A stretch of DNA of 40,602 nt from Candidatus Sumerlaeota bacterium (GTDB lineage: Bacteria; Sumerlaeota; Sumerlaeia; SLMS01; JAHLLQ01). The position numbers and the translations under genes were made by a program. Below, piece after piece: positions 3,646 to 25,781 of this stretch. Under the pieces are notes generated by a model. That model saw only the letters and a list, made by a program, of their open reading frames with translations, was not told where the DNA came from and did not search any database. The first letter of the stretch is position 1; each line of letters opens with the position of its first letter. Location of the stretch: assembly GCA_036751885.1 (NCBI GenBank), contig DAIOTT010000006.1:1-40602 (forward strand). Reading direction: 5' to 3'.

Positions 3646-3656
3646 GAGAAAGACGA

Positions 3657-4334: not shown

Positions 4335-4361
4335 ATTCAGCCGCGAAGCAAGATTGGCAAT

Positions 4362-5306
4362 TCAACCGGGGCGTTTGAGCTTACTCATGCAGAGGGCCAA
4401 ATGCCCCCAGATTTCTTGAACGTCGGGATGATCTGAGGGGTAGATGTTTTGCAAAACATCCAAGGCAGAATCAAAGCATTCCTTGGCGGTTTCGTAATCT
4501 TGGTGCGATTCGGAGATGAGGCCCAAGGTTCTGTAGGCGCGGGCTGCTTGAACGCCTTTTTTCCCGTTGGGATTTTTGCTTACCTCGATTGCTTTTTGTG
4601 CAGCACGAATGGCTTTTTCTACCTTTTGCCGAGAAAAGTAGAACAACGCCAAATCGTTTAGGCCTTTGGCAATTTCAGGGCGTTTTGAATTTGTAGCGGA
4701 GCGCCAAATTTCAAACTCTAACATGAAGAAGTGTTCCGCCTCTTCAAGCTTGTTGTTCTTCATGCAAGCCAACGCAACGTCGTTATAGATGCGCGCAAGA
4801 TCCGGGTGCCCACTGGGAAAATCCCGCTCGTAAATGCCAAGCGCGCGGCGAATGTGAAACTCCCCTTCTTTTTCTTTTCCTAATTCCAACTCAAGTTTGC
4901 CGAGTTGATGAAAGCACCGGGCTGTATCGATGTGGTTGGAGCCAAAGACTTTTTCGCAAACGTGCTGGGCTTTTTTAAATGTTTCAAAGGCTTTTTGATC
5001 GTTCCCCATGACAAGGAAAAGCTGGGCTTGATCTGTAATGGATTTTGCAACCGAGGCGGAGTATTGGCCGTACAACTCAACCTCAATGCGGATAAGCCGG
5101 TCGATTGAGCGTTCAGCATCGTTATAGCGGGCAAGGCGGATGTAGAGTCGGAAAAGCGAATCCAACACGATAACATGATTATCGTTGGTGTGATTAGATT
5201 TTTCCAGCTCGCCAAACGCTTGAATCCAAAAGGATTCCGCCTGTTTGTACTCCCCTTGGCGGGAAGCTTTAATTGCTGCTTGGTGGAAGTCTTGCCAGCC
5301 TGCCAT
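4362..5306 (-). CDS. tetratricopeptide (TPR_12 / kinesin-light-chain-like) repeat protein
   Basis: Contains repeated roughly 42-residue helical-hairpin units, for example ALGIYERDFPSGHPDLARIYNDVALACMKNNKLEEAEHFF. I place the start at ATG 5306 (MAGWQDF). The track's TTG at 5351 would overlap the upstream gene's stop at 5326. Confidence 0.75.
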   Translation of the reverse strand: MAGWQDFHQAAIKASRQGEYKQAESFWIQAFGELEKSNHTNDNHVIVLDSLFRLYIRLARYNDAERSIDRLIRIEVELYGQYSASVAKSITDQAQLFLVMGNDQKAFETFKKAQHVCEKVFGSNHIDTARCFHQLGKLELELGKEKEGEFHIRRALGIYERDFPSGHPDLARIYNDVALACMKNNKLEEAEHFFMLEFEIWRSATNSKRPEIAKGLNDLALFYFSRQKVEKAIRAAQKAIEVSKNPNGKKGVQAARAYRTLGLISESHQDYETAKECFDSALDVLQNIYPSDHPDVQEIWGHLALCMSKLKRPG

Positions 5307-5325
5307 CTTAATGCATTCAATCCCG

Positions 5326-6831
5326 TTAGTCTTGCTTCTCAGTTTGTGCAATCAACGAGCATACTTTTTCAAAGAGCAATCTTTTATCCCCTTGTGTAGA
5401 CAAAAACAACGTGAATGCTCGGCTGCCTTTAAGGCTTTTTATCAACTCCACAACTTCCGGCAAAGCCGCGTACTGCTGGTGCGATAAACGAAGGGCGTTT
5501 TGATCGCTGCCAGCAGGCGTAGAATTCAGATCTGGGGCAATCTGCGGATCGGCAGCCCACTCCAAAAGCCCGGCGTAGCAGTTGCTGGTTGAGCACACGG
5601 CCTGCAGGCGTTGCTGGCGTTCTGTGGTTTCTGCTGCTGAGTACCGGCCTTGTCGTGTTTCTTGTAGAATAATGTGGGCAATTGCCTCGGCGTTTTTCAT
5701 GGGCAACGGAACCACGAAACCGTTGGGAACAAGCACCTCGCGGGTGGATTCCGAGAGATCCGTTGCTAGGGCACGCATGCCCGCCCAAATCCAGCTGAAC
5801 AAGCGATTCCGGCAGCCGTATACCCCTTCAAGCGTGGGCTGATCCACAATAATCCCTGCATCTGCTTCAAGGCACAGGGAAAGATATTCATCATGCTGCA
5901 ACCAGCCCAGAAAGTGAAATCGATCGCGGAAAGGTGAAGCTTCAACTCTTGCCATGAAGCGGGCAAAAACATCCGTTACATGCCCGTCAATACCGCCGCC
6001 GGTGCTAACATACTGCAACCGGGGTTCTTGTGCTAAGGCCCGCTCCACGGCTTTGAACAGCGTTTCTTCATCCAACCAAGTATTGTAGCCGCCGCTAAAA
6101 AGGAGAAGCAATGCATCCGCTGGTATTCGGGTTCCTTTGCAGGAATATGGGGTGCTTTGGAAGGGCTGGTTGAAGGGATTTGCTGGAGCAAGCACGTGGG
6201 CGAAATTGTGAACGGAGGTTTCAAACCCCAACCGACCAACTGCGCCCAGTTCGCCGAATAAAGCGTGTTGTTGAGCCTGAGAGCAAACACCAAAGCAATC
6301 TGCCCGCAGTAAAATAGGAAGCACCATTTGCCATTGTGAAAGAAGCCCCCCGTTGTTTTTAGCCACAGCGGCTTGCATTTGCCGTTCTGCCATCGGGTGC
6401 CCAAAAAAATCACAGAACAACGGGCCAGCAAAAGCAGAGCGCGCCGCCAAATTGCCCATTACATCAGTTGAGGTCACAATTGCCTGCGGGTTGATTTGTT
6501 GAATCAATTGCTCAAGCTGGGCTTCACGAAGGTGTTCATCAGCGGCGAAAAATGTTTCACTGGCAATCATTCCACCGGGTGTTACTGAGGGGGTTTCAGC
6601 TAGTGCGTTGGGTGAATCTTCAGGGCTTTCTGATTCGTTCAAGGCAGTTGCAGCGAGTTTAACAGGTGCAGTGTTTTGTTCAGCGCCAAAGGCAAGTTCG
6701 CCAAGGTGCACTTCATGACCTTCGCCTGCAAGGGATTCGGCAAAGCTTTGCAGGCGCAACCCCGGTGCATAAACTTTTTTAGCCTTGGCAGAAGGCCTGG
6801 GCCCAACACCAAGAAGAAGAATTCGCGTCAT
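5326..6831 (-). CDS. putative GT-B fold glycosyltransferase-like protein (divergent)
   Basis: 501 aa. The N-terminus RILLLGVGP..GL..........GHEV and the C-terminal block HFLGWLQHDEYLSLCLEADAGIIVDQPTLEGVYGCRNRLFSWIWAGMRAL resemble a degenerate group-1 glycosyltransferase. Its ATG overlaps the mutase stop in TAATG at 6829-6833. Confidence 0.5.
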   Translation of the reverse strand: MTRILLLGVGPRPSAKAKKVYAPGLRLQSFAESLAGEGHEVHLGELAFGAEQNTAPVKLAATALNESESPEDSPNALAETPSVTPGGMIASETFFAADEHLREAQLEQLIQQINPQAIVTSTDVMGNLAARSAFAGPLFCDFFGHPMAERQMQAAVAKNNGGLLSQWQMVLPILLRADCFGVCSQAQQHALFGELGAVGRLGFETSVHNFAHVLAPANPFNQPFQSTPYSCKGTRIPADALLLLFSGGYNTWLDEETLFKAVERALAQEPRLQYVSTGGGIDGHVTDVFARFMARVEASPFRDRFHFLGWLQHDEYLSLCLEADAGIIVDQPTLEGVYGCRNRLFSWIWAGMRALATDLSESTREVLVPNGFVVPLPMKNAEAIAHIILQETRQGRYSAAETTERQQRLQAVCSTSNCYAGLLEWAADPQIAPDLNSTPAGSDQNALRLSHQQYAALPEVVELIKSLKGSRAFTLFLSTQGDKRLLFEKVCSLIAQTEKQD

Positions 6832-8180
6832 TAAAAAATCGCTTGGATTTCTTTGATGAGTTGCTTGGCTTTTTGCTTGTCTGTTGCTTCCACAAAAATA
6901 CGCAAAATGGGTTCAGTGCCGCTGGGGCGAATGTGGAGAAACGAATCTGGGAATAGGAACTTTAACCCATCGGTTTCATCAATATAATCTGCGTGCTTCA
7001 GGGCTTCCTTTGCACGCTTCAGTGTTTCGCTGACGGATAAATTGCCGAGTTCAACTTTTGTTTTTACCATGATAAATTGCGGAACAAGCGTATTCCACTC
7101 GGAGATTTTTTTGCGGGTTGATTGCATCCCCAAAATCAGCAGGGCAAAGGCGGTTGCTGCGTCGCGACCCGGGTGTATGGCAGGTATAATCACCCCGCCG
7201 TTTCCTTCACCGCCAACAATAGAATGGTGTTCCTCCATCATGGCTGTAACGTGGGCTTCACCGATTTTAGACCGGAACAATTCCACCCCGTGCTTTTTGG
7301 CCAAATGATCCATTGCCATGGAGGAGGAAAGGTTTGCAACAAGGGGCGATTTTTTGCCCACGATGTTCAAGTAAGCATCGGCACACAATACAAGCGTGCG
7401 CTCTTCGCCTAAGGGAACGCCGTTTTCATCCACAACAGCAAGGCGGTCCGCATCGGGATCAATCGCAACGCCGAAGTCTGCATTACAGCGTTTAACTTCC
7501 CGGCAAAGCACCTTAATATTTTCAGGCAAAGGTTCTGCTCCGCGGGGAAAGGGCCTTCCCGGATTATTGAAAATTACTTCCGGCGTGCAGCCATACTCCA
7601 TGCCAATCAGCGGAGCAAGAGTGCTGGAGGCAGCGTTGCAGCAATCAACAACAACGCGTAGTTTGCGCCTGCCCTTTGCGGGTTTGGGGGGAAGATGAGC
7701 AACCAATTTTGCCAGATGGATTTTTTCGGCGTCGGCGTTTTTTTCATATTCGCCGACCTGTAAACTTCCCTTGTAGGCCGCAGGTTTCTCCATCAATGCG
7801 TGGAGTTTTTCATGGTGCTTGGGCGTAAGAAAGCCGCCCTCTTCGTGAAAGAATTTTAGCCCGTTCCACTCAATGGGGTTGTGGCTGGCGGTGATGCAAA
7901 TACCGCCGCCGGCGTTGAATTCCCGCACCAGCATGCCGATTGTTGGCGTAGGAGCCAAGCCCACGGAAATCACCTTTACCCCCCGAGAACGAAGCGCCGC
8001 TTCAACACACGGTTGAGCCCACTCGCGAGAGGGCCGGCTGTCACCACCCACAACAACGACTTTTGTTTTAATCAAATCGGCGAACGCGCAAATGTAAGGG
8101 ACAATGATTTCTGCGGTAAAAGATTGACCGACGATTCCACGTAATCCGGCGACTGAAACGATTGGCTGATTTGATTGCAT
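6831..8180 (-). CDS. alpha-D-phosphohexomutase (phosphomannomutase/phosphoglucomutase/GlmM family)
   Basis: All four family loops are present: ITASHNPIEWNGLKF (phosphoserine), AIDPDADRL (Mg2+), GGEGNGG (sugar) and IRPSGTEPILRIFVEA (phosphate). Confidence 0.9.
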   Translation of the reverse strand: MQSNQPIVSVAGLRGIVGQSFTAEIIVPYICAFADLIKTKVVVVGGDSRPSREWAQPCVEAALRSRGVKVISVGLAPTPTIGMLVREFNAGGGICITASHNPIEWNGLKFFHEEGGFLTPKHHEKLHALMEKPAAYKGSLQVGEYEKNADAEKIHLAKLVAHLPPKPAKGRRKLRVVVDCCNAASSTLAPLIGMEYGCTPEVIFNNPGRPFPRGAEPLPENIKVLCREVKRCNADFGVAIDPDADRLAVVDENGVPLGEERTLVLCADAYLNIVGKKSPLVANLSSSMAMDHLAKKHGVELFRSKIGEAHVTAMMEEHHSIVGGEGNGGVIIPAIHPGRDAATAFALLILGMQSTRKKISEWNTLVPQFIMVKTKVELGNLSVSETLKRAKEALKHADYIDETDGLKFLFPDSFLHIRPSGTEPILRIFVEATDKQKAKQLIKEIQAIF

Positions 8181-8291: not shown

Positions 8292-9176
8292 TTAAGGCAT
8301 TCTTGAATAACTGCCCAGATCCCGAAGCTGGATAAAGTTGGAAGGTTCAGCCTTTGGCGGATTGATCAACGGTGAATCACTTGTGTTGGGGTGCTTGTGA
8401 TTCGGGTGATTGCAACGCACACCACAACCGGCACCGTAGAGAAATGGATCGTAGTAATAAAAATCACGGTTTCGTTCTTCTCGCCGTTGATTCAGAAATC
8501 GATTTTCCTGATTCCCCGTTGCAGAACGAAGACCACCCACTGCGCCGCGGCGGCTGTAATTGCTTTCCCCCTCTAATGCTTCCTGCTCTAGCAAAAGTTC
8601 CAGCTGCTTTTGCTTCAGCTTATCCATCTCAAGCTGTTTTTCCAACTGCGCAAGCTCTTGGCTGCGGGCGTGCTCCTCAGCCAAGCGAACCTGCTGGTAG
8701 TAATCTTTCAGGGCATTCAGTGTGGGCTCTGGTGGGGCCGGGGCAATTTGCTTTTCCAGCTTGGGCCCGTACTGGCTACTTTGCTCTAGGTGTTTGCGCG
8801 CTTGCTCCCAAGCAAGCCATTTGCCTGCATAAGTTTTAGTGGCAATAACGGCTTCATCTTCTGCATCAAGTTTTAATGCTTGGGCTAAAGCATTCAGCTG
8901 GTTCAGATCTTTTTCCGCAGATTGCGCTTCTAAGGATTGCAGGTCGTCCATTGTCAGCGTAAGCGGTTCTACTGAAAGCATATTGGGTGAAGCGGTTTGC
9001 GTTTGAGCAGAGGGCGCTGTGCCGGTTTGCGTTTGCGCAGTTTGCGTTTGAGCGGAAAACTCAACGCTTCTTTCGGCATGGGCGGGCGCAAGTATTCCAC
9101 TCACGGCGGCACACAACAGGATATAATTTAAGCTTGAAAATTGTGGTAGACGAGTAATAGGGGAACGACGTTTCAT
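8292..9176 (-). CDS. secreted hypothetical protein with QTQT repeat, coiled-coil centre and Cys/His-rich tail
   Basis: It has an N-terminal signal-like segment (LNYILLCAAVSGILAPAHA), then AQTQTAQTQTGTAPSAQTQTA. A Glu/Leu/Gln/Lys-rich heptad-like centre follows. The tail reads GCGVRCNHPNHKHPN. Confidence 0.55.
   Translation of the reverse strand: MKRRSPITRLPQFSSLNYILLCAAVSGILAPAHAERSVEFSAQTQTAQTQTGTAPSAQTQTASPNMLSVEPLTLTMDDLQSLEAQSAEKDLNQLNALAQALKLDAEDEAVIATKTYAGKWLAWEQARKHLEQSSQYGPKLEKQIAPAPPEPTLNALKDYYQQVRLAEEHARSQELAQLEKQLEMDKLKQKQLELLLEQEALEGESNYSRRGAVGGLRSATGNQENRFLNQRREERNRDFYYYDPFLYGAGCGVRCNHPNHKHPNTSDSPLINPPKAEPSNFIQLRDLGSYSRMP
8993..9053. repeat. three copies of GTTTGCGTTTG (encode the QTQT repeat on the minus strand)
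   Basis: Copies read directly at 8995-9005, 9025-9035 and 9040-9050. Confidence 0.7.
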
Positions 9177-9242
9177 TGCACACCTCGTTTGCTTTCCCTG
9201 TTATAAATGCATTAAGAGGACTTTCCATACAAGCAGAAATCC

Positions 9243-12182: not shown

Positions 12183-12461
12183 TCATTAGAAACTATTTTC
12201 TGATGATATTCTTGTGAATTATGAGCCAAAATAAACTCGTTTTACGGGACAATCTGGATTATAAATAAAACGCCCTTTTCACGTTTATGGCATATAAGTT
12301 TGGGTATTGAACCATAAAATAGTGCATCTTTTTGCTGAATCCTGAAAAACACCACGGGAAAATGTGATTTTTTTTCCAAGAAAGCGTTTTTTCTCTCGAC
12401 TCCAAAAAAAAAGTCCCTATTGCTTTCTCTTGTTCATTACCTTAAATAAGGATTCTCAATT

Positions 12462-15125
12462 ATGGCACCAAAAGCAAAAGAAAAGTCACGTCGAAGCAGC
12501 CGCCCAACAAGCCTTTCTTCAACGGCAAAAACGACGAAGACCCCCCCCGCAACTGCGAGCGCGGCAAAGCCTGCGGCAGCGCAAAAATCCGCCGCGAAAT
12601 CCGCAACACCTGCAACCGCCGCCTCAACCCCTGCAGCAAAGCCCGTCGCAAAAAAAGCTACCCCTCGTGCTGCGGCGGCTAAGGCTACACCAACGGCCAC
12701 TTCCCGCCGTAAGCCCGCTGCAAGCAAGGCAAAATCCCCCGTTGCTCCTGCTGCACCTGCCAAAAAAGCCCCAAACGCCCCAGCTGAACAACTAGGCTCT
12801 GCCGTTGAGCAATTCTACTACAAAAAATCTGGGCGCCAGTTGTCCTACAAGCCTGCCGAGCGTGTACCCATTGTTGAAGTCCCAAACTTCCCCTCCTTGG
12901 GCCGCCTCACCGCCCTGCGCTTTATTGAGTGGGTGCTTGAAAACCCAAACGGTGTCATTAGTCTTCCTACGGGGAAAACTCCTGAGTATTTCATCAAGTG
13001 GACTCAACACTTCCTCAGCGGGTGGGATGAAAAATCTGTTCAAGCAGAGCTTGCCGAAGTTGGCTTAGCTGGTAAACCCAAGCCGAGTTTTGAGAACCTT
13101 CGCTTTGTGCAGATCGATGAGTTCTACCCCATTGATCCCGCCCAGCAAAACAGCTTCTACTACTACGTAAACAAACAATACCTTAAACGCTTTGGCATCA
13201 ACCCAGAGAACGCCTTGCTGATGAACACAGCAAAAATGGGCGTTACTAAAAGCAGCGACTTGCTTGAGATTTTCCCGGACGGCAAAGTGGACTTAATGCT
13301 TCGCCACCGCGAACCCAAAACACCGTTGGAAAAACGCCAGTTGCAAACCATTCAAGCAGTGGATGAGTTCTGCTCTGAGTACGAGCAGAAAATTCGCGAC
13401 ATGGGGGGCATTGGCTTCTTCCTTGGCGGCATTGGGCCGGATGGACATATTGGCTTTAACGTGCGCGGCAGCGACCTTGCTTCACCCACACGGTTGACTT
13501 ACACAAACTACGAAACCGAAGCCGCCGCCGCAGGCGATTTGGGCGGCATTGAAGTTAGCCGCAATAAGCCTGTTATTACGATTGGCTTAGGCACCATTTC
13601 CTACAAAAAAGACGCCGTTGTTATTATTTTCGCCGCCGGTGAAGCAAAGTCAAAAACAATCGCAAACGCCATTACAAGCCCCAAAAGCGTGATGTACCCC
13701 GCCTCCATTCTGCAGGACATGCCAAACGCCCGCTTCTACCTTACCTACGGCGCCACCATTAAACTTGAAGACCGGTTGATTGAAGACATTCAAAATTCCG
13801 CGGGCTTATCCACGGAAGAGGTTGATAAGCGAGTTATCAATTGTGCGCTTGCTGCCAAAAAACGCCTGAGCTTGCTTACAGATAAAGACGCCGCAAACGA
13901 CCCGCTAGTGAAGGCCGTGCTCGGCAAAACGGGTAAATCCCTCAGCGAGCTTGCAAAAGCATGCGAAGCTCGCCTAAAAGAGCGCATCGAAAAAGGCATT
14001 ACACCCAAAACCAATGAAATAATTCTACACACCGGCCCCCACCACGATGACATTAGCTTAGCCTACATGCCCTACGTGATGCACCTGGTGCGTATTGCCA
14101 GCACAAAAAACTATTTCTCCGTTCTAACCTCAGGCTTTACCGCCGTAACAAACAACTTCCTGTGCGAGTTGTTTGAAAAACTGAAGTCCTATTTGGATTC
14201 CGGTGTGTTTGACGCCGATATTGAGAACAACGTTTTTAACGCCAACAACATGCAAGCCCGCCGCGAAGAGGTTTTCCGCTTCTTGGATGGTATTGCCAGC
14301 TTTGACGAAGAAACCCAAGACTTTGCCCAAGCGCGCCGCACCCTGTACAATTTGATTGCCGTGTACGAGGATGAAGACATCAACAACCTGAAGGCACGCC
14401 TAACGGAAAACATCCACTACTTGAAGTCCACATACCCCGGCAAAAAGGATGTGAAAATCATTCAACTGCTCAAGGGCATGCAGCGCGAGTTTGAAGAAGA
14501 ACTGATTTGGGGTTACGTAGGCACAGGCCCCGAAGATGTATTCCACGCACGCCTTGGATTCTACACTGGCGACATCTTCACAAAGGCCCCCACGGCCGAT
14601 CGCGACGTTGCCCCCGTGTTGAAGATGTACGAGGAGTTGAAACCCACAATCGTTTCCTTAGCCTTTGATCCCGAAGGGACAGGCCCCGATACGCACTACA
14701 AAGTTCTGCAAGTTCTGCATGAAGCCCTGATTCAATACCGCGACAAAACCGGTAAGGAGCCCATGGTTTGGGGTTACAGGAACGTATGGCATAAGTTCCA
14801 CCCAGCCGATGCAAACCTCTACGTTCCTGCAACATTGAACACCATGAGCGTAATGCACCACAGCTTCATTAATTGCTTTGGCTCGCAAAAAAATGCCAGC
14901 TTCCCAAGCTTTGAGTTTGATGGGCCGTTCAGCATTCAAGCACAACGCATGATGGTAGAACAATTCCAAATGCTGCGCACCTTGTTGGGGCACGAGTTCT
15001 TTGAACAAAATGAAAACCCACGACTTCGTGCAGCCCGCGGTTTCATCTTTATCAAGGAAATGCCTCTTGCTGAATTCTCAGGCCAAGCACGCGCTTTGGC
15101 TGAAGTGACAGAGGCAGCGAACTAA
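12462..15125 (+). CDS. nagB: long-form glucosamine-6-phosphate deaminase/isomerase (NagB domain plus LmbE/PIG-L-like C-terminal domain) with a basic Ala/Lys/Pro-rich N-terminal tail
   Basis: NagB motifs are present: ISLPTGKTPEYF, VQIDEFYP and GGIGPDGHIGFNVRGS. The C-terminal region begins ILHTGPHHDDISLAY, resembling the (A/P)HPDD motif of LmbE-like deacetylases. The first 110 aa are low-complexity. An ATG at 12462 has AAGGA 9 nt upstream. Confidence 0.8.
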   Translation: MAPKAKEKSRRSSRPTSLSSTAKTTKTPPATASAAKPAAAQKSAAKSATPATAASTPAAKPVAKKATPRAAAAKATPTATSRRKPAASKAKSPVAPAAPAKKAPNAPAEQLGSAVEQFYYKKSGRQLSYKPAERVPIVEVPNFPSLGRLTALRFIEWVLENPNGVISLPTGKTPEYFIKWTQHFLSGWDEKSVQAELAEVGLAGKPKPSFENLRFVQIDEFYPIDPAQQNSFYYYVNKQYLKRFGINPENALLMNTAKMGVTKSSDLLEIFPDGKVDLMLRHREPKTPLEKRQLQTIQAVDEFCSEYEQKIRDMGGIGFFLGGIGPDGHIGFNVRGSDLASPTRLTYTNYETEAAAAGDLGGIEVSRNKPVITIGLGTISYKKDAVVIIFAAGEAKSKTIANAITSPKSVMYPASILQDMPNARFYLTYGATIKLEDRLIEDIQNSAGLSTEEVDKRVINCALAAKKRLSLLTDKDAANDPLVKAVLGKTGKSLSELAKACEARLKERIEKGITPKTNEIILHTGPHHDDISLAYMPYVMHLVRIASTKNYFSVLTSGFTAVTNNFLCELFEKLKSYLDSGVFDADIENNVFNANNMQARREEVFRFLDGIASFDEETQDFAQARRTLYNLIAVYEDEDINNLKARLTENIHYLKSTYPGKKDVKIIQLLKGMQREFEEELIWGYVGTGPEDVFHARLGFYTGDIFTKAPTADRDVAPVLKMYEELKPTIVSLAFDPEGTGPDTHYKVLQVLHEALIQYRDKTGKEPMVWGYRNVWHKFHPADANLYVPATLNTMSVMHHSFINCFGSQKNASFPSFEFDGPFSIQAQRMMVEQFQMLRTLLGHEFFEQNENPRLRAARGFIFIKEMPLAEFSGQARALAEVTEAAN

Positions 15126-19850: not shown

Positions 19851-20558
19851 TTAACGAGATAGCAACTTTAGTACGCCACCATCATCACCGGTGGGGCGCA
19901 CCTTCAATTGCATGATAACATCCGTGTGTTCCGGTAAGCCTTCGTTCATGCTCAGGATTCTATTCTCCTTTGCCAAAAGGGCATACCAAGTATGCTCAAG
20001 CCGTGGGGTGCTTCTTGAGGGCAAAACACCGAACACGCGAGAACTATAGCTGGCGGGATCATGAAGCAGGGCAACACCCAACGCCTCCCTGCGGGAAATC
20101 TCCGCATTACGCTCCACTGAATCCGGCGTAATGATCAGAATTTCAACCATGTTGGAAAGTCGAGTTTTGTTTTTCATTACCCACTGGTAAAGTGCCCGCG
20201 CCTCAGGGGAATCATCCCCCGGCGAAAACAACAGCAACGCATCACCGCCAAGCACAATCTCGCGAGTGGAAACCTCGCGACCTGCTTGATCCAACAACCA
20301 CAACGGCGGAACCGCATTGCCCACAACTAAAGGGGAACGCCGCGGAGAGTTCTCCAAGTTGCGGGGATCAACCCCGGAGGTAAGCTCCACGTTTGGCGAT
20401 GCACCATCCTCCAAAACGATGGGTCGGCAGCTAAATAAGCCGATGCTCAAACCTACGGCAGCAACAATGAGCAGCACACTGCGCGCAAAGCCCTTGCGGG
20501 TGTTTTGCAATGCAGCAAAGAATGAAGAGAATTGAACGGACAATTGAACGGAAAACAT
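19851..20558 (-). CDS. peroxiredoxin/AhpC-TSA-fold lipoprotein lacking the peroxidatic cysteine
   Basis: ATG at 20558 has AGGAG 12 nt upstream. The signal and lipobox read ..RSVLLIVAAVGLSIGLFSC. The body follows the BCP/AhpC-TSA pattern (LLDQAGREVSTREIVLGGDALLLFSPGDDSPEA...ILIITPDS...LGVALLHDP). SPEA replaces the usual TPxC, and the mature protein has no other Cys. Confidence 0.5.
   Translation of the reverse strand: MFSVQLSVQFSSFFAALQNTRKGFARSVLLIVAAVGLSIGLFSCRPIVLEDGASPNVELTSGVDPRNLENSPRRSPLVVGNAVPPLWLLDQAGREVSTREIVLGGDALLLFSPGDDSPEARALYQWVMKNKTRLSNMVEILIITPDSVERNAEISRREALGVALLHDPASYSSRVFGVLPSRSTPRLEHTWYALLAKENRILSMNEGLPEHTDVIMQLKVRPTGDDGGVLKLLSR
20530..20553. repeat. 12-bp tandem direct repeat (AATTGAACGGAC / AATTGAACGGAA)
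   Basis: Read directly. It sits 4 nt upstream of the plus-strand ATG at 20557. It also lies inside the first 10 codons of the minus-strand gene, where it encodes SVQLSVQF. Confidence 0.7.
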
Positions 20559-22404
20559 GAGTAAAGTAAACTCCTTGAACGAACTTTCAACTGAACGCCC
20601 AGCCAACGCAAGCGGGGAGTTCAATGCTGGTGGCAATCCGCGCCCCGTTGCGCAGGATTTTGAACGCCTTGCTCCCCTGCAATCCGTTCAAAATGCCCTG
20701 CGCAAATTTGGCTGGCCGCGCTTTGCAACAACAGCGTTGGCCCTGATGTTCTATGCCTTTTGGTTTGCTGCCACCGGATTGCTGAACGATCCCGAGCAAT
20801 TTGATCTTGTGATTGATGAATCCTTGCGGATTGCTGTAAACGACCCCCACAGCCCGTTGATCATTGCTGACCTGCAAAATCCCAACGCAGGCATTACAGT
20901 TCATTACCCGGATTTCCCAATCAATTTTGTGCAAGTACGGGTCGACGCAAACCCCGGGAGTTCCCTTCAGATAGAAGATTCCGCGGCAACTGAGCCCTTC
21001 ACAGCCCGCTCAGAAGAACAGCAGACCCGCCTGCTTGAACAAAACACCCAGCCCACCCAGCAAGCCCACAAGCTTACAATCCGTGCAGCCGCAGATAATC
21101 ACATCCGCCGTGTAGAAGTGATTTTCGGTGTTCGGCCAAACGGCAAACTGCACCGACCGCAAGCCTTGGTTGCGTTGGGGGGAGTGACAATTCTGCTAAG
21201 CTTTTTCCTGCTTCTTACGAGCAGGGAAATTCAGCAAAACAGAAACCGCACCCTAAACATCTACATTCTTTTCACCGCTCTAATCATCTTCACAGGGCTG
21301 GTGCTCCGCAGCATTCAAGCGGAAAACGCCTATTACCAAGAGCTTGGGTATGATGCCACTGGGTATGTGGAGATTGCCAAACTTGGCGGCGGACTGTACG
21401 AAACGGCCATGAGCAAACCCCCTTGGGTACGCGAGCCCCTTTGGCCGTGGATTTTGCGGGCGTGGTTCCTTATTTTTCCCGGGACAAATGCCGGTGCCAT
21501 GCACTGCTCGCTGTTTGTCTCCGTTGCTGCCATGGGCCTAGCGGCCGTTGTAGGGCGCCGAGTTTTCGGGGATTTCCCCGGCCTAATCGGCGTGGCCGCA
21601 TTGGCAATCACACCGGAATGGATTGGCATGAGCGCCCGCGTGTTGCGCCATGATTTAGTGCTGCTGCTGATTCTGTTGGGTCTTGGGCTAAAAACCTGGA
21701 AAACCCTTGAGCGCGCCCCATATTTTAGGTCTTCGGCATGGGGCCTTTGGGGTGCTGCCATCATGCTGACCCAGTTTAGCTTTTTGCTCTTCGTCTTCCC
21801 CATGCTCGCTTGGGAAGCCGTTCGCACACGGTGGAAGCCAACCGAATACGCTTTAGCCGCTGGAATTCTGGCCCTTCTGATTACGCCCCACCTCATGTTT
21901 AACGCACGGTTTCAAGATTCCGGCGATCCACTCTTCTCAAGCTCCATTCACACGCTATATTATTTCAACAAAGAAAACATAGGGAAACCCGGCTTTCCAT
22001 CGGCCCTAGAGTTCCGGGAGAACCCCTACGTGGGTGAACCCATGAGCACGGCGGAATTCTTTTTCAAACATCACACGTTTTTAGAGGTCGTAAAGATTCA
22101 CCTGAAAGGCTACTGGAACCTGTTCGTATGGGTTCAGCCGAGGATTTATCTCTTCAGAGGCGTAGAATGGCTGATGCTGCCGGGCCTTTTAGGCGGCATT
22201 GAACTGCTGCGACGCAGAAAGGAGTGGGCTGCCCTGGTGTTTGCTTTTGCCGTGTTGCCGTTTGCCTTCATCGCCGGCTTAGGGGCCGATTTGCGCTTAG
22301 GAATGGAAGCAACGGTGTTTGTAGCCTGGGTATGGGGAATAGGGATTGTGGCAATGACTAACGGCGCTTTATGGCTTATAAAACAACGCGAGGCTAAGAA
22401 ATAA
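20557..22404 (+). CDS. GT-C fold integral-membrane glycosyltransferase (ArnT / PMT_2 family 39-like)
   Basis: 615 aa with more than 10 predicted hydrophobic helices. A loop reading QELGYDATGYVEIAK...YETAMSKPPWVREPLWPW is followed by helix-rich segments, as in ArnT/PMT_2-like enzymes. A roughly 130-aa non-membrane insert lies between helix 1 and helix 2. Confidence 0.55.
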   Translation: MSKVNSLNELSTERPANASGEFNAGGNPRPVAQDFERLAPLQSVQNALRKFGWPRFATTALALMFYAFWFAATGLLNDPEQFDLVIDESLRIAVNDPHSPLIIADLQNPNAGITVHYPDFPINFVQVRVDANPGSSLQIEDSAATEPFTARSEEQQTRLLEQNTQPTQQAHKLTIRAAADNHIRRVEVIFGVRPNGKLHRPQALVALGGVTILLSFFLLLTSREIQQNRNRTLNIYILFTALIIFTGLVLRSIQAENAYYQELGYDATGYVEIAKLGGGLYETAMSKPPWVREPLWPWILRAWFLIFPGTNAGAMHCSLFVSVAAMGLAAVVGRRVFGDFPGLIGVAALAITPEWIGMSARVLRHDLVLLLILLGLGLKTWKTLERAPYFRSSAWGLWGAAIMLTQFSFLLFVFPMLAWEAVRTRWKPTEYALAAGILALLITPHLMFNARFQDSGDPLFSSSIHTLYYFNKENIGKPGFPSALEFRENPYVGEPMSTAEFFFKHHTFLEVVKIHLKGYWNLFVWVQPRIYLFRGVEWLMLPGLLGGIELLRRRKEWAALVFAFAVLPFAFIAGLGADLRLGMEATVFVAWVWGIGIVAMTNGALWLIKQREAKK

Positions 22405-22409
22405 GGCGT

Positions 22410-23462
22410 TTAGGCTTTGGGGTTGATAATCTTTTCGTAGTAATGAGGGCTGAGTTTATATTCAACGCAGAGAGACTTTATCAGTTCTTCCTGCCCGCGA
22501 TACCAATCGTCATCCTTGAGGATATTTTTCCGGCTATACAAATCAAATAATATTTCCAAATCATCAATTTGCCCCAATATTATTCTTTCATTATAATAAA
22601 CAAGATATTGGTAGTAATTTTTCACCCATTTCACATAATACAACACAAACAAAAAAATAACAATCTGATACTTTACTTCAAAAAATAATACAATCCCAAT
22701 AACTATGGCCAATATAATTGTTATTAAGATGAACACACTTGCACTAATAATTGATCGAGTTCCTGATTCCACAATACGTTTTTCTCTTCTATAACCAACC
22801 AATTCAAACAGGATTGCTTTGCGATTTGCCTCCATCATCTTCATAATAGCATCATGAGGAAATTGATTTACAAGATAAATCGCAGCACCTAATATGGTCA
22901 AAAAAGCAGCGCAGTATACAAAATAAAAAAACAAATCACTCAATTCGCCCCAGAAGTTATAAGTAAAAAATGAAAATAATACAATTACCAACAAAGCAAA
23001 GATTACTTGAAAAAATAAATTCCTCTTTTCAATTTCACGATGAATACTCAATTCCAATAAATCTGTTACAGTAGTGCGTGTTTCCAAAAACACTGAAATA
23101 CGACGCCAATCAATAAACTCTAGAATAAATTCTTTTTTACAAATGGGGATAATAAAATCAAAAGGAAGTATTTTTTTATCACCAAAACGTCTTGTATAAT
23201 ATTGATTTAAGGCAAAGATCAGCAGTAAGGAAAAAGCAAAAAAAACAAAAAAACTATAGTTAATTCTAAACATCACAAAGGCAAAAGAGAGTATCGCCAA
23301 CACGCGAAAAATACTGCTCAGCAAATCAAGGGAACTCATAAAATTCCCCAAAATTCTTTTTCTCAATGGCAAAGATGAATACCATTCATGAAGAGGAATT
23401 TCAGCTAATAAATGGTTCATTGGGTTAGGCTTGAATATTTTTTGATAAATTGAACACAACAC
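22410..23462 (-). CDS. low-GC multi-pass membrane protein, paralog 1 (unknown family)
   Basis: 350 aa. The GTG at 23462 has a perfect GGAGG 7 nt upstream. It has about six hydrophobic helices in three pairs, each pair preceded by an (R/K)K.(I)L..(E/F) segment. The C-terminal soluble domain reads ..DLYSRKNILKDDDWYRGQEELIKSLCVEYKLSPHYYEKIINPKA. Confidence 0.65.
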   Translation of the reverse strand: MLCSIYQKIFKPNPMNHLLAEIPLHEWYSSLPLRKRILGNFMSSLDLLSSIFRVLAILSFAFVMFRINYSFFVFFAFSLLLIFALNQYYTRRFGDKKILPFDFIIPICKKEFILEFIDWRRISVFLETRTTVTDLLELSIHREIEKRNLFFQVIFALLVIVLFSFFTYNFWGELSDLFFYFVYCAAFLTILGAAIYLVNQFPHDAIMKMMEANRKAILFELVGYRREKRIVESGTRSIISASVFILITIILAIVIGIVLFFEVKYQIVIFLFVLYYVKWVKNYYQYLVYYNERIILGQIDDLEILFDLYSRKNILKDDDWYRGQEELIKSLCVEYKLSPHYYEKIINPKA

Positions 23463-23539
23463 TTTTTTACCTCCATCACAAATCGCTTACTAAGACTTGC
23501 AGTTCTCGCTAAATTAGGCAACCCAAGAGACTAAGGCGT

Positions 23540-23986
23540 TTAGGCTTTTTGATTGATAAGTTTTTCGTAATAAGCCTCACTTAGTTCATATTGTTCGCAC
23601 AAGGCTTTGATCGACTTTTCTTGCCCCCTGAACCAATCATCATCCTTGAGGATATATCGTCGATGATACAAATCTAGAAGTACGCTTATTTCCGAAATGA
23701 TTACAAGCATACCCTTTGCCTGCCTAAACCATAAATACTTACATTTCCTAACAAACAAGAAACACAAATAAAAATACACAATTACTGCCAAAACACCAAA
23801 CAGAACGGTTAGCTTCGGCCATAATATTAAATGATAAGCCCCGTAAAAGACCAAAATAACTATTGCGAAAAATAACAGTACTTTAAATAGAGAAACAGAA
23901 AAAGACCTTAAGTTCACTTTGTATTTATTCGCACCAAGCAATTCAATTGCCGCTGATTTTTTACATGAATCCAGTATGCTCTTCAC
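23540..23986 (-). CDS. low-GC membrane protein, paralog 2 (single-module copy; start uncertain, possibly degenerate)
   Basis: The ORF track extends this to 24202. The extension has native GC content and contains a strong terminator at 24041-24078. The homologous low-GC part begins near 23990, and the only in-frame start there is GTG at 23986 with no SD. The last 44 aa are 30/44 identical to paralog 1. Confidence 0.4.
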   Translation of the reverse strand: MKSILDSCKKSAAIELLGANKYKVNLRSFSVSLFKVLLFFAIVILVFYGAYHLILWPKLTVLFGVLAVIVYFYLCFLFVRKCKYLWFRQAKGMLVIISEISVLLDLYHRRYILKDDDWFRGQEKSIKALCEQYELSEAYYEKLINQKA

Positions 23987-24034
23987 CCCACAAAGGATTA
24001 CGTACTTTTTGCGGCGGCTTGGCTGATGGTTTTG

Positions 24035-24078
24035 GGCAAAAAAACACCCGAATCGGCAGAAGTGCGTTCGGGTGTTTT
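24035..24078 (-). terminator. strong rho-independent terminator (minus strand)
   Basis: AAAACACCCGAA (24041-24052) and TTCGGGTGTTTT (24067-24078) are perfect reverse complements: a 12-bp stem with a 14-nt loop. On the minus strand the stem runs into a 7-T tract. Confidence 0.75.
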
Positions 24079-24140
24079 GCAATTGTGTGATGTAATCAAG
24101 TAAGCCAGACGGATGAATGCGCCTGAAGACTTCTTGAGCC

Positions 24141-24239
24141 TTACAGGGGTTCGTTGCTATCGTCAAAGCAGCCAAGTTGCCAGCACAGAAGAGTGCCAAC
24201 AATCATGAGGGGGATGAAAATTCCGGCAAAGTAGTACAT
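24141..24239 (-). CDS. candidate 32-aa hydrophobic small protein
   Basis: ATG at 24239 is preceded by GGAG (24250-24247) with a 7-nt spacer. The product is MYYFAGIFIPLMIVGTLLCWQLGCFDDSNEPL, one transmembrane helix with an acidic tail. The stop is at 24141, and the terminator follows 62 nt downstream. It is below the ORF-track cutoff as a stand-alone ORF, falling within the 84-aa track ORF 24141..24395. Confidence 0.35.
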   Translation of the reverse strand: MYYFAGIFIPLMIVGTLLCWQLGCFDDSNEPL

Positions 24240-24270
24240 ATTATGGCTCCATAGCTGTGTCAGGTGGAAA

Positions 24271-24299
24271 ATCCTTTGCCCCACAGCCTCAAATGTCAA
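24271..24299 (-). promoter_or_regulatory. candidate promoter for the small ORF
   Basis: The minus strand reads a perfect TTGACA (24299-24294), a 17-nt spacer, then a weak AAGGAT (24276-24271). This is a pattern match only. Confidence 0.2.
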
Positions 24300-24362
24300 G
24301 CCTAGCACAACGTTGGCTAATACCTTTTTTTGAGTGTTATTCCATTTTTTTAGACGGATGTT

Positions 24363-25781
24363 ATGATTATGCTGTATGCTATTCCCCCTTCGCACCGAAT
24401 TTCAGGGCTTTTTGCAAACCCGCCTCTGGGGCAAACGGTTACGCTTCAAGGGTGGGTGCGAACGCGTCGTGATTCCAAGGTGGGATTTTCCTTTCTGGAA
24501 GTGAACGATGGTTCCACGTTGAAGGGCATTCAAGTGGTGATTCCGGGGGATTTGGCGAATTACGCGAGCGAGGTGCTTCACCTTGGCACGGGGTGCAGCG
24601 TTCGGGTTCAGGGGACGCTTGTGGAATCGCAAGGGAAGGGGCAAAGCGTTGAAATTCAAGCGTCGACAGTGCAGGTGATTGGCTGGGTGGAGGATCCCGA
24701 GACGTACCCCATGGCGAAGAAGCGCCACTCGTTGGAGCATTTGCGCGAGGTTGCCCACTTGCGCCCGCGAAGCAATACAATCGGCGCGGTGGCTCGCTTG
24801 AGGAACCGCATGGCGTTTGCCACGCACGAGTTTTTTCAGGAGCAGGGCTTTCTGTATGTTCACACGCCGATTATTACGGCGAGCGATTGCGAGGGGGCGG
24901 GCGAGATGTTTACGGTGACAACGCTGAACCTAGAGGCGCTGGTAAAAGCTAAGGCTGAAGGGGTGGATTACGGTCAGGATTTTTTTGGCAAACGGGCGCA
25001 CCTAACGGTTTCGGGTCAGTTGAACGGTGAAACATATGCTTCTGCCTTGACGAATATCTACACGTTTGGGCCCACGTTTAGGGCTGAAAACTCCAACACG
25101 ACGCGACACCTTTCGGAGTTTTGGATGGTGGAACCTGAGATGGCGTTCTGCGATTTGCAGGGCGATGCCGCCGTGGCTGAGGCTTATATTAAAAGGCTTT
25201 TCACGACAGCCTTGGCTGATTGCGCTGAAGATATGGCCTTCTTTGATGAACACGTGGAGAAAGGCGTTGTGGCGCGTTTGGAGGGGATTGTGGGGGCAGA
25301 GTTCACCCGATTGACTTATACCGAAGCCATAGGCTTGCTAGAGGCCAGCAAGCAGACGTTTGAGTTCCCCGTAAGGTGGGGCATTGATTTGCAAACTGAA
25401 CACGAACGCTGGCTAACCGAGCAGCATGTAAATGGGCCAGTGATTCTGACGGACTACCCTAAAGAGATTAAGGCCTTTTATATGCGCCAAAACGAGGACG
25501 GCAAAACCGTGGCAGCGATGGATGTGTTGCTCCCCGGCATTGGGGAAATGATTGGCGGAAGCCAGCGCGAAGAACGGCGCGATGTTTTGGAAGCCCGCCT
25601 TGTAGAGCTTGGCCTGAACCTAGCGGACTACCACTGGTACTTGGATTTGCGCCGATACGGCACAGTTCCCCACGCGGGATTTGGCTTGGGCTTTGAACGG
25701 GCGATTCAGTTCATCAGCGGGTTGGGAAACATACGGGATGTAATCCCCTTCCCCCGAGCGCCTAAACATGCGGAATTCTAA
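24363..25781 (+). CDS. asnS: asparagine--tRNA ligase
   Basis: 472 aa with class IIb motifs: [32 protein letters not shown] and [15 protein letters not shown]. Confidence 0.93.

What the first reader, a model, noticed from the sequence alone, without database searches (positions are those of the whole stretch)
22405..24035. Abrupt low-GC insertion carrying two tandem paralogous membrane proteins with an unassignable shared C-terminal domain
- **Composition shift.** My hand counts give 32/60 GC (53%) for 22261-22320, at the end of the GT-C gene. They give 30/120 (25%) for 22561-22680, 21/60 (35%) for 23701-23760 and 27/60 (45%) for 24061-24120. The drop starts within 5 nt of the GT-C stop codon.
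- **Gene content.** The block holds only two minus-strand genes.
- **Paralog 1.** It spans 22410-23462 and starts at GTG behind a perfect GGAGG. It has three helix pairs, each preceded by a related amphipathic segment (RKRILGNF, KKEFILEF, RKAILFEL), so it looks internally triplicated.
- **Paralog 2.** It corresponds to one such module: KSAAIELLGANKYK, two helices and the C-terminal domain.
- **Shared tail.** Both end in the same roughly 45-aa soluble tail, 30/44 identical. The tails are DLYSRKNILKDDDWYRGQEELIKSLCVEYKLSPHYYEKIINPKA and DLYHRRYILKDDDWFRGQEKSIKALCEQYELSEAYYEKLINQKA. DNA similarity persists there, for example CCAATC(G/A)TCATCCTTGAGGATAT, and runs 7 nt past the stop codons (TAAGGCG).
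- **Interpretation.** I cannot place the domain in any family I know. The setting is a foreign-composition insert between convergent native genes, made of paralog-expanded modular membrane proteins. That is typical of accessory functions such as immunity or phage-exclusion proteins, but this is inference only.
Basis: partly seen in the sequence, partly recalled or inferred. Interest (0 to 1): 0.78.

Follow-up and report, generated by a model that had tools for sequence, protein, structure and literature searches.

The report
Old AT-rich orphan membrane-gene pair
The low-GC block is real, but it is not a fresh foreign insert: it is an old, fast-evolving pair of orphan membrane-protein genes, one of them a truncated relic, that a sister species carries at the same place beside asnS, and its function is unknown.

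Summary
Block 22405-24035 has 33.5% GC against 48.5 ± 2.7% elsewhere. It carries two minus-strand paralogs that share a C-terminal tail (30/44 aa identical).

- **Origin.** The window comes from a Sumerlaeia (Sumerlaeota) MAG.
- **Family size.** A profile search of 1.84 billion representative proteins found the family in one other place only: two adjacent genes in a sister species (asnS 88% identical).
- **Shared locus.** There the genes sit in the same order beside asnS and a 32-aa microprotein gene, and they are equally low in GC.
- **Empty site.** A more distant relative (asnS 80%) has asnS and the microprotein gene but no cassette.
- **Age.** The cassette was therefore gained, or lost in the outgroup, before the two species split. 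Synonymous sites in asnS are now near saturation, yet the cassette has not taken on host composition.
- **Mobility and defence.** No mobility genes, tRNA, phage, plasmid or defence-system match was found.
- **Architecture.** The full-length form is about 340 aa. I predict three transmembrane hairpins, with all long loops and the conserved tail in the cytoplasm.
- **Paralog 2.** It is a 5'-truncated relic, not a one-module protein. The sister species' upstream copy carries an in-frame stop.
- **Triplication.** Sequence comparison does not support it.

Function is unknown. This is an AT-rich, lineage-restricted orphan family of modest interest.

The parts
22405..24035 (.). Low-GC block (33.5% GC against 48.5% in the rest of the window)
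   Evidence: GC3 is 0.31 and 0.37 against 0.45-0.63 in native genes.
22410..23462 (-). par1: the intact full-length family member, 350 aa. Predicted three TM hairpins, with a cytoplasmic N-terminus, loops and conserved tail. GTG start; Shine-Dalgarno GGAGG at 23470-23474.
   Evidence: ORF. The N-terminal 'QKIFKPNP' upstream of the ATG used by one gene caller matches 'KRFQKPNP' of the sister-species copy A, which supports the GTG start. Hydropathy and K/R distribution. Chance-ORF probability 2e-12. Identical in three assemblies.
23540..23986 (-). par2: a 5'-truncated paralog (last TM hairpin plus tail, 148 codons from the first possible start GTG 23986, no Shine-Dalgarno). Probably a relic.
   Evidence: The upstream part of the 220-aa ORF overlaps the terminator and pep32. 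Gene callers disagree: 211 aa against 56 aa.
22402..22544 (-). Tail-coding repeat, copy 1. Encodes the motif [DE]LYxRxxILxDxDWxRGxE and includes 8 nt past the stop.
   Evidence: 143 nt, 72% identity to 23532-23674. Codon-by-codon view. The motif is present in all four family members.
23532..23674 (-). Tail-coding repeat, copy 2
24036..24080 (-). Intrinsic-terminator-like hairpin (AACACCCGAA...TTCGGGTGTT plus U7) between the 32-aa gene and par2
   Evidence: -19.8 kcal/mol, z = -4.5, 0 of 200 shuffles fold as well. An analogous hairpin plus U-run sits at the same place in the sister species (L008 8984-9021; -20.7 kcal/mol, z = -4.0).
24141..24239 (-). pep32: conserved 32-aa single-TM microprotein gene (MYYFAGIFIPLMIVGTLLCWQLGCFDDSNEPL), upstream of the cassette and divergent from asnS. 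GGAG Shine-Dalgarno; conserved TTGACA upstream.
   Evidence: It is 100% aa identical in the sister species; my reading of the two DNA sequences gives 6 synonymous and 0 non-synonymous differences. Variants of at least 90% identity occur in two further contigs. It also occurs without the cassette.
24363..25781 (+). asnS (context): anchor of the conserved block asnS-pep32-cassette
   Evidence: Pfam. Nucleotide homology to the sister species covers exactly 24141-25781.
20557..22404 (+). GT-C / PMT_2 glycosyltransferase (context): convergent neighbour of par1. The junction is specific to this species.
   Evidence: Pfam. Relatives at 51-66% identity have other genes downstream.

Best explanation
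The block is an old, chromosomally resident pair of tandem paralogs from a protein family restricted to a small clade of Sumerlaeia.

**History.** The cassette entered, or arose, just downstream of a conserved 32-aa microprotein gene next to asnS, before the window species and its sister species split. It has been inherited vertically since. It evolves very fast (25-32% aa identity, against 88% for asnS). It has stayed AT-rich instead of converging on host composition. The likeliest reason is that it is weakly expressed and weakly constrained, so it sits near the AT-biased mutational equilibrium; its GC3 (0.31-0.37) is below even the pooled intergenic GC of 0.405.

**One copy is needed.** par1 here and copy B in the sister species are intact. 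par2 here has lost its 5' two-thirds. Copy A in the sister species has an in-frame TAG.

**The protein.** The functional protein is a roughly 340-aa inner-membrane protein. It has three tight TM hairpins with almost nothing exposed outside. A composite cytoplasmic face is formed by the N-terminus, two K/R-rich loops and the conserved helical tail ([DE]LYxRxxILxDxDWxRGxE).

**Inferred mechanism.** The poorly conserved hairpins act mainly as membrane anchors. The conserved cytoplasmic loop and tail do the work, either self-association or binding of a cytoplasmic partner at the membrane. Expression is probably low and may come from read-through of the pep32 terminator, because only 30-50 nt separate the U-run from the first start codon.

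**Shown:** composition, paralogy, distribution, synteny, the empty site, degeneration of one copy in each species, and the terminator hairpins.
**Inferred:** topology (hydropathy and positive-inside rule only), the cause of the low GC, the read-through, and the biochemical role.
For: **Restricted family**
- Word-indexed searches of 5.8 billion clusters found only the query proteins themselves.
- The exhaustive profile search of 1.84 billion representatives found only P0009 (E = 8.8e-16) and P0010 (E = 1.8e-8), plus one repeat-driven hit.

**Same locus in the sister species**
- P0010 and P0009 are adjacent on Logan DRR438510_16389. The order there is asnS(-), 32-aa ORF(+), hairpin, copy A, copy B.
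- asnS is 87.8% identical and pep32 100% identical, and nothing else on either flank is shared.
- The cassette is low-GC there too: 0.34 and 0.376, with GC3 of 0.34 and 0.38, against flanking genes of 0.52-0.56.
- asnS pS is 0.71 (dS about 2.2) between the two species, so there has been ample time for the cassette to converge on host composition.

**Empty site**
- L094 (asnS 80% identical to both species) has asnS and pep32, then a convergent RidA gene. It has no low-GC stretch and no cassette remnant.

**Full-length ancestry and decay**
- L008 9052-10053 is a 333-codon par1-like frame with a single in-frame TAG. Window par2 aligns only to the last 150 aa.

**Selection**
- The tail has pN 0.29 against pS 0.77 between par1 and par2.
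- Long ORFs are maintained in DNA where stop codons are frequent.

**Topology**
- Three hydrophobic hairpins have turns of 0-4 residues. The long loops carry 5, 10, 7 and 11 K+R.
- Tail identity is 36-55%, against 15-27% in the TM module.

**No mobile or defence signature**
-.

**Terminators**
-.

**Background**
- Bacterial ORFans are generally AT-richer than native genes (PMC3514957, abstract listed). Their origin is still debated (PMC12315717, abstract listed).
Against: - **Few genomes.** Only two ingroup species and one outgroup locus are available, so gain in the ancestor and loss in the outgroup cannot be told apart.
- **Quartet result.** A quartet analysis groups the paralogs within each genome (1792 of 2000 bootstraps) rather than by position. 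A single ancestral tandem pair then needs gene conversion or independent duplications. Independent acquisitions at the same site would give the same pattern.
- **Composition.** Cassette GC3 (0.31-0.37) is below the pooled intergenic GC of 0.405. Mutational equilibrium alone may therefore not explain the composition.
- **Possible assembly error.** The in-frame TAG of copy A is seen in one assembly only. The other two contigs start downstream of it.
- **Weak structural basis.** No structure prediction reached usable confidence (pLDDT 55 and 52). The cytoplasmic-domain idea rests on hydropathy and charge alone.
- **No data on expression or function.**
Confidence: 0.55

Rival explanations
1. Recent horizontally acquired island carrying accessory immunity or phage-exclusion membrane proteins.
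For: - Strong compositional contrast, including GC3.
- No homologs in most of the protein universe.
- Absent from the outgroup locus L094.
- Small polytopic inner-membrane proteins are a common form of superinfection-exclusion and immunity proteins (own knowledge).
Against: - The sister species has the cassette at the same site, although its asnS has near-saturated synonymous divergence from the window's.
- There is no integrase, transposase, tRNA or credible flanking repeat.
- There are no PADLOC or PHROG matches and no phage, plasmid or IMG/VR relative.
- There are 0 SNPs but also no presence/absence variation among three 99.9%-identical assemblies.
- The predicted external loops are only 0-4 residues long.
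Confidence: 0.1
2. The site downstream of pep32 is a hotspot where related cassettes from an unsampled AT-rich gene pool are repeatedly swapped in, as happens with wzx/wzy-type allele replacement. The low GC and the 25-30% identity between species would then reflect different donor alleles, not in-situ divergence.
For: - Low GC persists in both species despite deep divergence.
- Paralogs within a genome are closer to each other than to the copy at the same position in the other species.
- Both outer flanks of the cassette differ between species.
Against: - No third allele or donor was found anywhere among 1.84 billion representative proteins, phage genomes, plasmids or viral contigs.
- No recombination or mobility machinery or repeats were found at the borders.
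- This reading needs two insertions of the same rare family at the same site.
Confidence: 0.15
3. The cassette proteins are functional partners of the 32-aa microprotein, either as a membrane complex or as genes regulated through the pep32 terminator. The pep32-cassette unit would then be one system.
For: - The genes are co-oriented and adjacent in both ingroup species, in genomes that share no other synteny there.
- Only 30-50 nt separate the terminator U-run from the first cassette start codon, which leaves little room for a separate promoter.
- All of these proteins are predicted membrane proteins.
Against: - pep32 occurs without the cassette in L094 and in the JGI contig.
- pep32 has its own conserved -35 box, Shine-Dalgarno sequence and terminator.
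- pep32 is invariant while the cassette diverges to 25% identity, which argues against tight co-evolution.
Confidence: 0.12
4. The low GC is only a by-product of Ile/Phe/Leu/Lys/Tyr/Asn-rich membrane coding; nothing is compositionally foreign or unusual.
For: Amino-acid composition alone lowers the expected GC to 0.40-0.415 under native codon usage, about half of the drop.
Against: - GC3 is 0.31 and 0.37, against 0.45-0.63 in all 26 comparison genes.
- Those genes include native membrane proteins: SecY has GC3 0.58 and GT-C has 0.58.
Confidence: 0.03

Closest known systems
AT-rich, lineage-restricted bacterial ORFan genes (for example the E. coli ORFans of PMC3514957; review PMC12315717)
   Same: - No homologs outside a very narrow clade.
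- AT-richer than the host genome at all codon positions.
- Fast evolving and annotated as hypothetical.
- Origin unresolved between HGT, rapid divergence and de novo birth.
   Different: - These genes are long (about 340 aa) rather than short.
- They are demonstrably old: shared by species whose asnS has near-saturated synonymous divergence.
- They are tandemly duplicated and carry a clearly conserved motif under purifying selection.
Bacillus subtilis YdbS/YdbT-type pairs: a short and a long paralog built from TM hairpins plus a cytoplasmic bPH domain (recalled from memory)
   Same: - Adjacent short and long paralogs.
- TM hairpins with cytoplasmic soluble parts.
   Different: - No bPH_2 (PF03703) or any other Pfam match.
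- The tail is helical and occurs only once per protein.
- The short copy here is a truncation relic, not a designed one-module protein.
- The modules are not detectably homologous to each other.
Small polytopic inner-membrane superinfection-exclusion and immunity proteins (for example T4 Imm, P22 SieA; own knowledge)
   Same: Small, hydrophobic, AT-rich, poorly conserved inner-membrane proteins that do not match standard families.
   Different: - No prophage or defence-island context.
- No PHROG or PADLOC hit and no viral relatives.
- Stable chromosomal position across species.
De novo membrane proteins arising from thymine-rich sequence (Vakirlis et al. 2020, Nat Commun; own knowledge)
   Same: The coding strand is T-rich (T 0.37, A 0.29, G 0.20, C 0.14). 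The products are dominated by TM helices. The family has no detectable ancestry.
   Different: These proteins are much longer than typical de novo products. They have conserved charged cytoplasmic motifs. No non-coding precursor was found at the empty site.

Membership tests
Any curated protein family (Pfam-A, NCBIfam) | Score above the family's curated cut-off | tested here: not met
   - par1: no hits.
- par2: DUF6320, 16.5 bits against a cut-off of 29.9.
- P0009: DUF2207_C, 15.5 bits against 33.
- P0010: CrgA, 13.8 bits against 389.
- The 50-aa tail alone: nothing at E <= 10.

Known anti-phage defence system proteins (PADLOC-DB) | HMM match to a defence-system component | tested here: not met
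   No hits at E <= 1 for either protein
Phage-encoded protein families (PHROGs), phage or plasmid carriage | HMM match, or a tblastn match in phage, plasmid or viral-contig collections | tested here: not met
   Only E = 0.3-0.6 noise in PHROGs. No tblastn match in 50,697 phage or 72,556 plasmid records. No confirmed relative in IMG/VR.
Recently acquired genomic island | Atypical composition | tested here: met
   33.5% GC against 48.5%; GC3 0.31 and 0.37 against 0.45-0.63
Recently acquired genomic island | Absent from close relatives at the same locus | tested here: not met
   Present at the same locus in the sister species and in all three 99.9%-identical assemblies. Absent only from the more distant L094.
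Recently acquired genomic island | Mobility signatures (integrase or transposase, tRNA target, flanking direct repeats) | tested here: not met
   No tRNA in the window. The block holds only the two genes. The only repeat spanning the borders is an 18-nt match at 78% identity, typical of chance.
Lineage-restricted ORFan gene family | No detectable homolog outside a narrow clade, despite an exhaustive search | tested here: met
   only two species carry it
Lineage-restricted ORFan gene family | Really protein-coding (selection on the product) | tested here: met
   Chance probability of the ORF is 2e-12. A conserved motif is present in four copies from two species. Tail pN is 0.29 against pS 0.77.
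SHOCT-like short C-terminal oligomerisation domain (a lead from memory) | Match to the Pfam SHOCT models | tested here: not met
   The tail scanned alone against Pfam-A at E <= 10 gave no family. The resemblance (hydrophobic-x-x-acidic-acidic-aromatic) is recalled, not demonstrated.
Internally triplicated (three homologous modules) membrane protein | Detectable sequence similarity between the three helix-pair modules | tested here: not met
   hhalign of the family sub-alignments m1/m2/m3 gives probabilities of 0.1-0.7%
Six-TM, N-in/C-in inner-membrane protein | Six hydrophobic helices, with the positively charged loops all on one side | tested here: inconclusive
   A Kyte-Doolittle scan and K/R counts are consistent with this in par1, P0009 and copy A. 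No dedicated topology predictor was available, and the AlphaFold models have low confidence.
Rho-independent terminator (element between pep32 and par2) | Stable GC-rich hairpin followed directly by a U-run | tested here: met
   -19.8 kcal/mol, z = -4.5, followed by U7. An analogous element sits at the same place in the sister species. The simple scanner missed it because the loop exceeds 8 nt.

The most novel reading that the evidence does not exclude
The family was born within this Sumerlaeia lineage. It either arose de novo from T-rich DNA downstream of pep32 or has diverged beyond recognition. It then grew, duplicated and acquired a selectively maintained cytoplasmic motif, while keeping its birth-like AT-rich composition over a span in which synonymous sites of neighbouring genes became saturated. 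A second possibility is that it is a new kind of membrane-anchored accessory or defence effector that current catalogues do not contain.
Probability: 0.12. Interest if true: 0.6.

Novelty: new member of a known kind. Interest (0 to 1): 0.3.

Why it matters
- **Caution for island callers.** A sharp GC drop and orphan content look like recent horizontal transfer. Here they mark a cassette that predates a species split and has not converged on host composition. Composition alone would misdate it.
- **A small undescribed family.** The family has a clear motif ([DE]LYxRxxILxDxDWxRGxE) and reciprocal decay of one paralog per lineage. It could serve as a case study of how orphan membrane genes persist.
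- **A microprotein that NCBI's annotation overlaps.** The analysis exposes a perfectly conserved 32-aa membrane microprotein gene; NCBI's over-extended 211-aa ORF call overlaps it.
- **Limits.** No new mechanism is demonstrated, so the practical importance is modest.

Tried and rejected
**Family and structure searches**
- Pfam, NCBIfam, PADLOC and PHROG scans of both proteins, the sister-species proteins and the tail alone gave nothing above threshold.
- A PDB profile search gave 0 hits at E <= 10.
- AlphaFold2 on a single sequence and on the 4-sequence alignment gave pLDDT 55 and 52, which is unusable.

**Searches for relatives**
- The GT-C protein against the GTDB representative genomes found no relative.
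- A back-translated pep32 motif against the same collection gave two chance hits in Desulfobacteraceae, both containing a stop codon. pep32 was too short as a protein query.
- asnS against JGI metagenomes returned 80 loci, all 65% identical or less. None carries pep32 or the cassette.

**Hits set aside**
- P0011 is a 2186-aa repeat protein that matched tail positions 97-127 nine times. I judge the hit repeat-amplified and spurious. Its Pfam content (DUF3630, DUF7298, weak OTU) says nothing about the tail.

**Other checks**
- Rfam on 21800-24800 gave nothing.
- Internal triplication was rejected.
- I looked for a gene-conversion tract at the 3' end of the tails and found no clear gradient in synonymous identity.
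- I looked by eye for an attenuator or antiterminator alternative to the pep32 terminator and found no convincing competing pairing.
Full report

Yes. The block 22405-24035 has 33.5% GC, and its lowest 1-kb window has 30.3%. Every 1-kb window outside the block lies between 39.5% and about 60%, with mean 48.5% and sd 2.7.

The block holds two minus-strand ORFs. BLASTP between them gives E = 2e-23 (35% over 153 aa). The last 44 residues are 30/44 identical, as stated. A 143-nt direct repeat (22402-22544 / 23532-23674, 72% identity) covers the tail codons and continues 8 nt past both stop codons.

par1 starts at GTG 23462 behind GGAGG at 23470-23474. A 350-codon open frame in DNA of this composition has a chance probability of about 2e-12. 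Apart from the two gene frames, no frame in the block stays open for more than 59 codons.

**2. Is the low GC only an amino-acid effect?**

No. GC3 is 0.31 for par1 and 0.37 for par2. It is 0.45-0.63 in 26 other genes of the window, including native membrane proteins (SecY 0.58, GT-C 0.58). With native codon usage these amino-acid sequences would give GC of 0.40 and 0.415, against 0.313 and 0.353 observed. About half of the drop is therefore compositional bias at synonymous sites.

**3. Where does the window come from, and who else has these genes?**

par1 and par2 are encoded on MAG contigs labelled Sumerlaeia bacterium (GCA_050330275.1 and GCA_964605285.1). The window is 99.9% identical to both. 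There is no difference at all inside the block, against about 1 SNP per kb in the flanks.

Word-indexed searches of 5.8 billion protein clusters found only the query proteins themselves. An exhaustive HMMER profile search of 1.84 billion representatives, using the shared 153-aa module, returned:
- the window's own proteins;
- two real relatives, P0009 (343 aa, E = 8.8e-16) and P0010 (199 aa, E = 1.8e-8);
- one 2186-aa repeat protein whose nine weak matches I regard as repeat-amplified noise.

No match exists in Pfam, NCBIfam, PADLOC, PHROGs, PDB sequences, 50,697 phage records, 72,556 plasmids or IMG/VR contigs.

**4. The decisive context**

P0010 and P0009 are adjacent on one contig (Logan DRR438510_16389, locus L008). 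The order there is asnS(-), a 32-aa ORF(+), a hairpin with a U-run, P0010, P0009, then PhoD. This is the window's arrangement, mirrored: asnS(+), pep32(-), hairpin, par2, par1.

asnS is 87.8% identical between the two. Nucleotide homology covers exactly window 24141-25781, that is asnS plus pep32. Nothing else on either flank is shared. The two genomes are otherwise rearranged here. GT-C relatives at 51-66% identity have different genes downstream in every case, so the GT-C/par1 junction is specific to the window's species.

The sister-species cassette is just as AT-rich: GC is 0.34 and 0.376, with GC3 of 0.34 and 0.38, against flanking genes of 0.52-0.56. Synonymous sites of asnS are close to saturation between the two species (pS 0.71, dS about 2.2). 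The cassette is therefore not a recent arrival, and its composition has not converged on that of the host.

**5. An empty site**

The 90%-identity cluster of pep32 holds two variants. One lies on ENA contig k141_9198 (locus L094). There, asnS (80.4% and 80.8% identical to the window and L008, hence an outgroup) is again divergent from pep32. About 150 nt after pep32 comes a convergent RidA gene. There is no low-GC stretch (all 300-nt windows are at least 0.51) and no cassette remnant by tblastn. The other variant, on a 1.8-kb JGI contig, is also followed directly by a convergent gene.

The cassette was therefore gained between pep32 and its downstream neighbour in the common ancestor of the two ingroup species, or lost in the outgroup. 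Either way, pep32 does not need it.

**6. Anatomy of the family**

- **The short sister-species protein is a gene-calling artefact.** L008 9052-10053 is a 333-codon frame colinear with par1 and P0009 from the N-terminus ('KRFQKPNP...PLYEWY' against par1 'QKIFKPNP...PLHEWY'). One TAG at 9199 interrupts it. The ancestral state is thus two full-length tandem paralogs.
- **par2 is a remnant.** It aligns only with the last 150 residues. Upstream of it lie only about 50 nt and then the pep32 terminator. The 220-aa ORF, and NCBI's 211-aa call, run through that terminator into pep32 in another frame. The first usable start is GTG 23986, without a Shine-Dalgarno sequence. A second annotation calls only 56 aa. 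par2 is therefore best read as a 5'-truncated relic. Each species keeps one intact copy and one damaged copy.
- **Divergence.** Pairwise identity among the four copies is 25-32%. In the shared module the tail is 36-55% identical and the TM part 15-27%.
- **Conserved features.**
  - N-terminal PL-x-[ED]-[WY]-Y.
  - A loop motif, ILP[LI]...[LI][ND]W...TT..DL.
  - E-[LI]-[LIV]-G before the last hairpin.
  - The tail motif [DE]LYxRxxILxDxDWxRGxE.
- **Selection on the tail.** Between par1 and par2 the tail shows pN 0.29 against pS 0.77, which indicates purifying selection.
- **Topology.** Hydropathy gives three hairpins with turns of 0-4 residues. The long segments carry 5, 10, 7 and 11 K+R. This fits a topology with both termini, both loops and the tail in the cytoplasm and almost nothing exposed outside.
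- **Triplication.** Profile-profile comparison does not support it (probability below 1%).
- **Structure.** AlphaFold2 models are all-helical but of low confidence (pLDDT 55 and 52). Foldseek found nothing credible.

**7. Duplication history**

A quartet analysis on 132 shared columns groups the paralogs by genome (1792 of 2000 bootstraps), not by position. Three scenarios fit:
- independent duplications after a single-copy gain;
- an ancestral pair homogenised by gene conversion;
- independent acquisitions.

I cannot separate these with two species. No conversion tract is evident in the tails.

**8. Transcription signals**

pep32 has a conserved TTGACA box, a GGAG Shine-Dalgarno sequence and a strong hairpin followed by a U-run. 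The hairpin is at window 24036-24080 (-19.8 kcal/mol, z = -4.5). The sister species has a different sequence with the same design (-20.7 kcal/mol, z = -4.0). Only 30-50 nt separate the U-run from the first cassette start codon. I infer, without having shown it, that the cassette is transcribed at a low level by terminator read-through.

**9. Best explanation and rivals**

The block is an old, vertically inherited, fast-evolving orphan gene pair. The intact member is a six-TM membrane anchor that carries a conserved cytoplasmic face and tail. One copy is decaying in each lineage.

The low GC most likely persists because a weakly expressed, weakly constrained gene stays near the AT-biased mutational equilibrium. 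The general AT-richness of ORFans is documented (PMC3514957, PMC12315717). The explanation is not complete, because cassette GC3 lies below the intergenic GC of 0.405.

Rivals:
- a recent island with an immunity or exclusion function (contradicted by the synteny, with no positive evidence);
- recurrent allele replacement from an unsampled AT-rich pool (possible, but no donor was found);
- a functional partnership with pep32 (weakened by the empty site);
- a pure amino-acid effect (refuted by GC3).

Function remains unknown. My preferred mechanism is tail-mediated self-association or partner binding at the cytoplasmic face of the membrane. This is inference from conservation patterns only.

**10. 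Verdict**

The family is undescribed, but the phenomenon is ordinary: an AT-rich, lineage-restricted orphan membrane family. Its unusual aspects are its demonstrable age, its retained compositional contrast and the reciprocal decay of its paralogs. Interest is about 0.3.

Noticed in passing
window 24141-24239 (-): A 32-aa single-TM microprotein gene (MYYFAGIFIPLMIVGTLLCWQLGCFDDSNEPL) lies divergent from asnS. It is 100% identical at the protein level in a species whose asnS is 88% identical. My reading of the two DNA sequences gives 6 synonymous and 0 non-synonymous differences. Variants of at least 90% identity occur in two more contigs. NCBI's over-extended 211-aa par2 call overlaps it. It has no Pfam or NCBIfam match. 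Its C-terminus (G-x-F-D-D-x-x-E-P) faintly recalls CcoS/FixS peptides, but that resemblance is from memory only.
   Followed up: partly
window 22402-22409 and 23532-23539; L094 3178-3188: The 8 nt after both stop codons are identical (minus strand ACGCCTTA). The 11-mer ACGCCTTAGTC after par2 also occurs in the pep32-downstream spacer of the cassette-free outgroup locus (shuffle p = 0.007 for that one of six comparisons). It could be a remnant of the ancestral spacer or insertion border, or chance.
   Followed up: partly
L008 9199-9201: A single in-frame TAG interrupts the upstream full-length paralog of the sister species, so the gene caller reports only a 199-aa protein (P0010). It could be a real nonsense mutation or an assembly error. 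The two other contigs of that species start downstream of it.
   Followed up: partly
window 24295-24300 (-), L008 ~8772-8777, L094 ~2948-2953: A perfect TTGACA box, with conserved surrounding sequence (GGCTTGACA), lies upstream of pep32 in all three species. It is probably the pep32 promoter -35 element, within the asnS-pep32 divergent control region.
   Followed up: no
window ~12410-12747: The ungapped register between the window and both near-identical public assemblies (L001, L002) breaks down upstream of about 12747. This implies an indel or a structural difference near the start of the 887-aa ORF (12462-15125).
   Followed up: no
window 20557-20636: The longest ORF of the AhpC/TSA-family gene (19851-20636, -) overlaps the start of the GT-C gene (20557, +) by 80 nt. 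Public annotations use shorter starts for both (235 aa and 609 aa), so the real starts are uncertain.
   Followed up: no
L005 (Logan SRR9205266_13399) 3419-7739: In another relative (GT-C 66% identical), GT-C and the PPIase gene are about 2 kb apart, with DUF2805 and an Endonuclease_1 gene between them. The window has par1, par2, pep32 and asnS between the same two genes. The interval between GT-C and PPIase is thus a recurrent rearrangement point in this clade.
   Followed up: partly
P0011 (ENA, 263-kb contig): A 2186-aa protein has a weak OTU-like N-terminal region and nine copies of a long (~130-aa) repeat. Each repeat contains 'LNTLYDRVNVMKDDGFVDGERAKLL', which resembles the cassette tail motif. 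I judge this a repeat-amplified chance similarity.
   Followed up: partly
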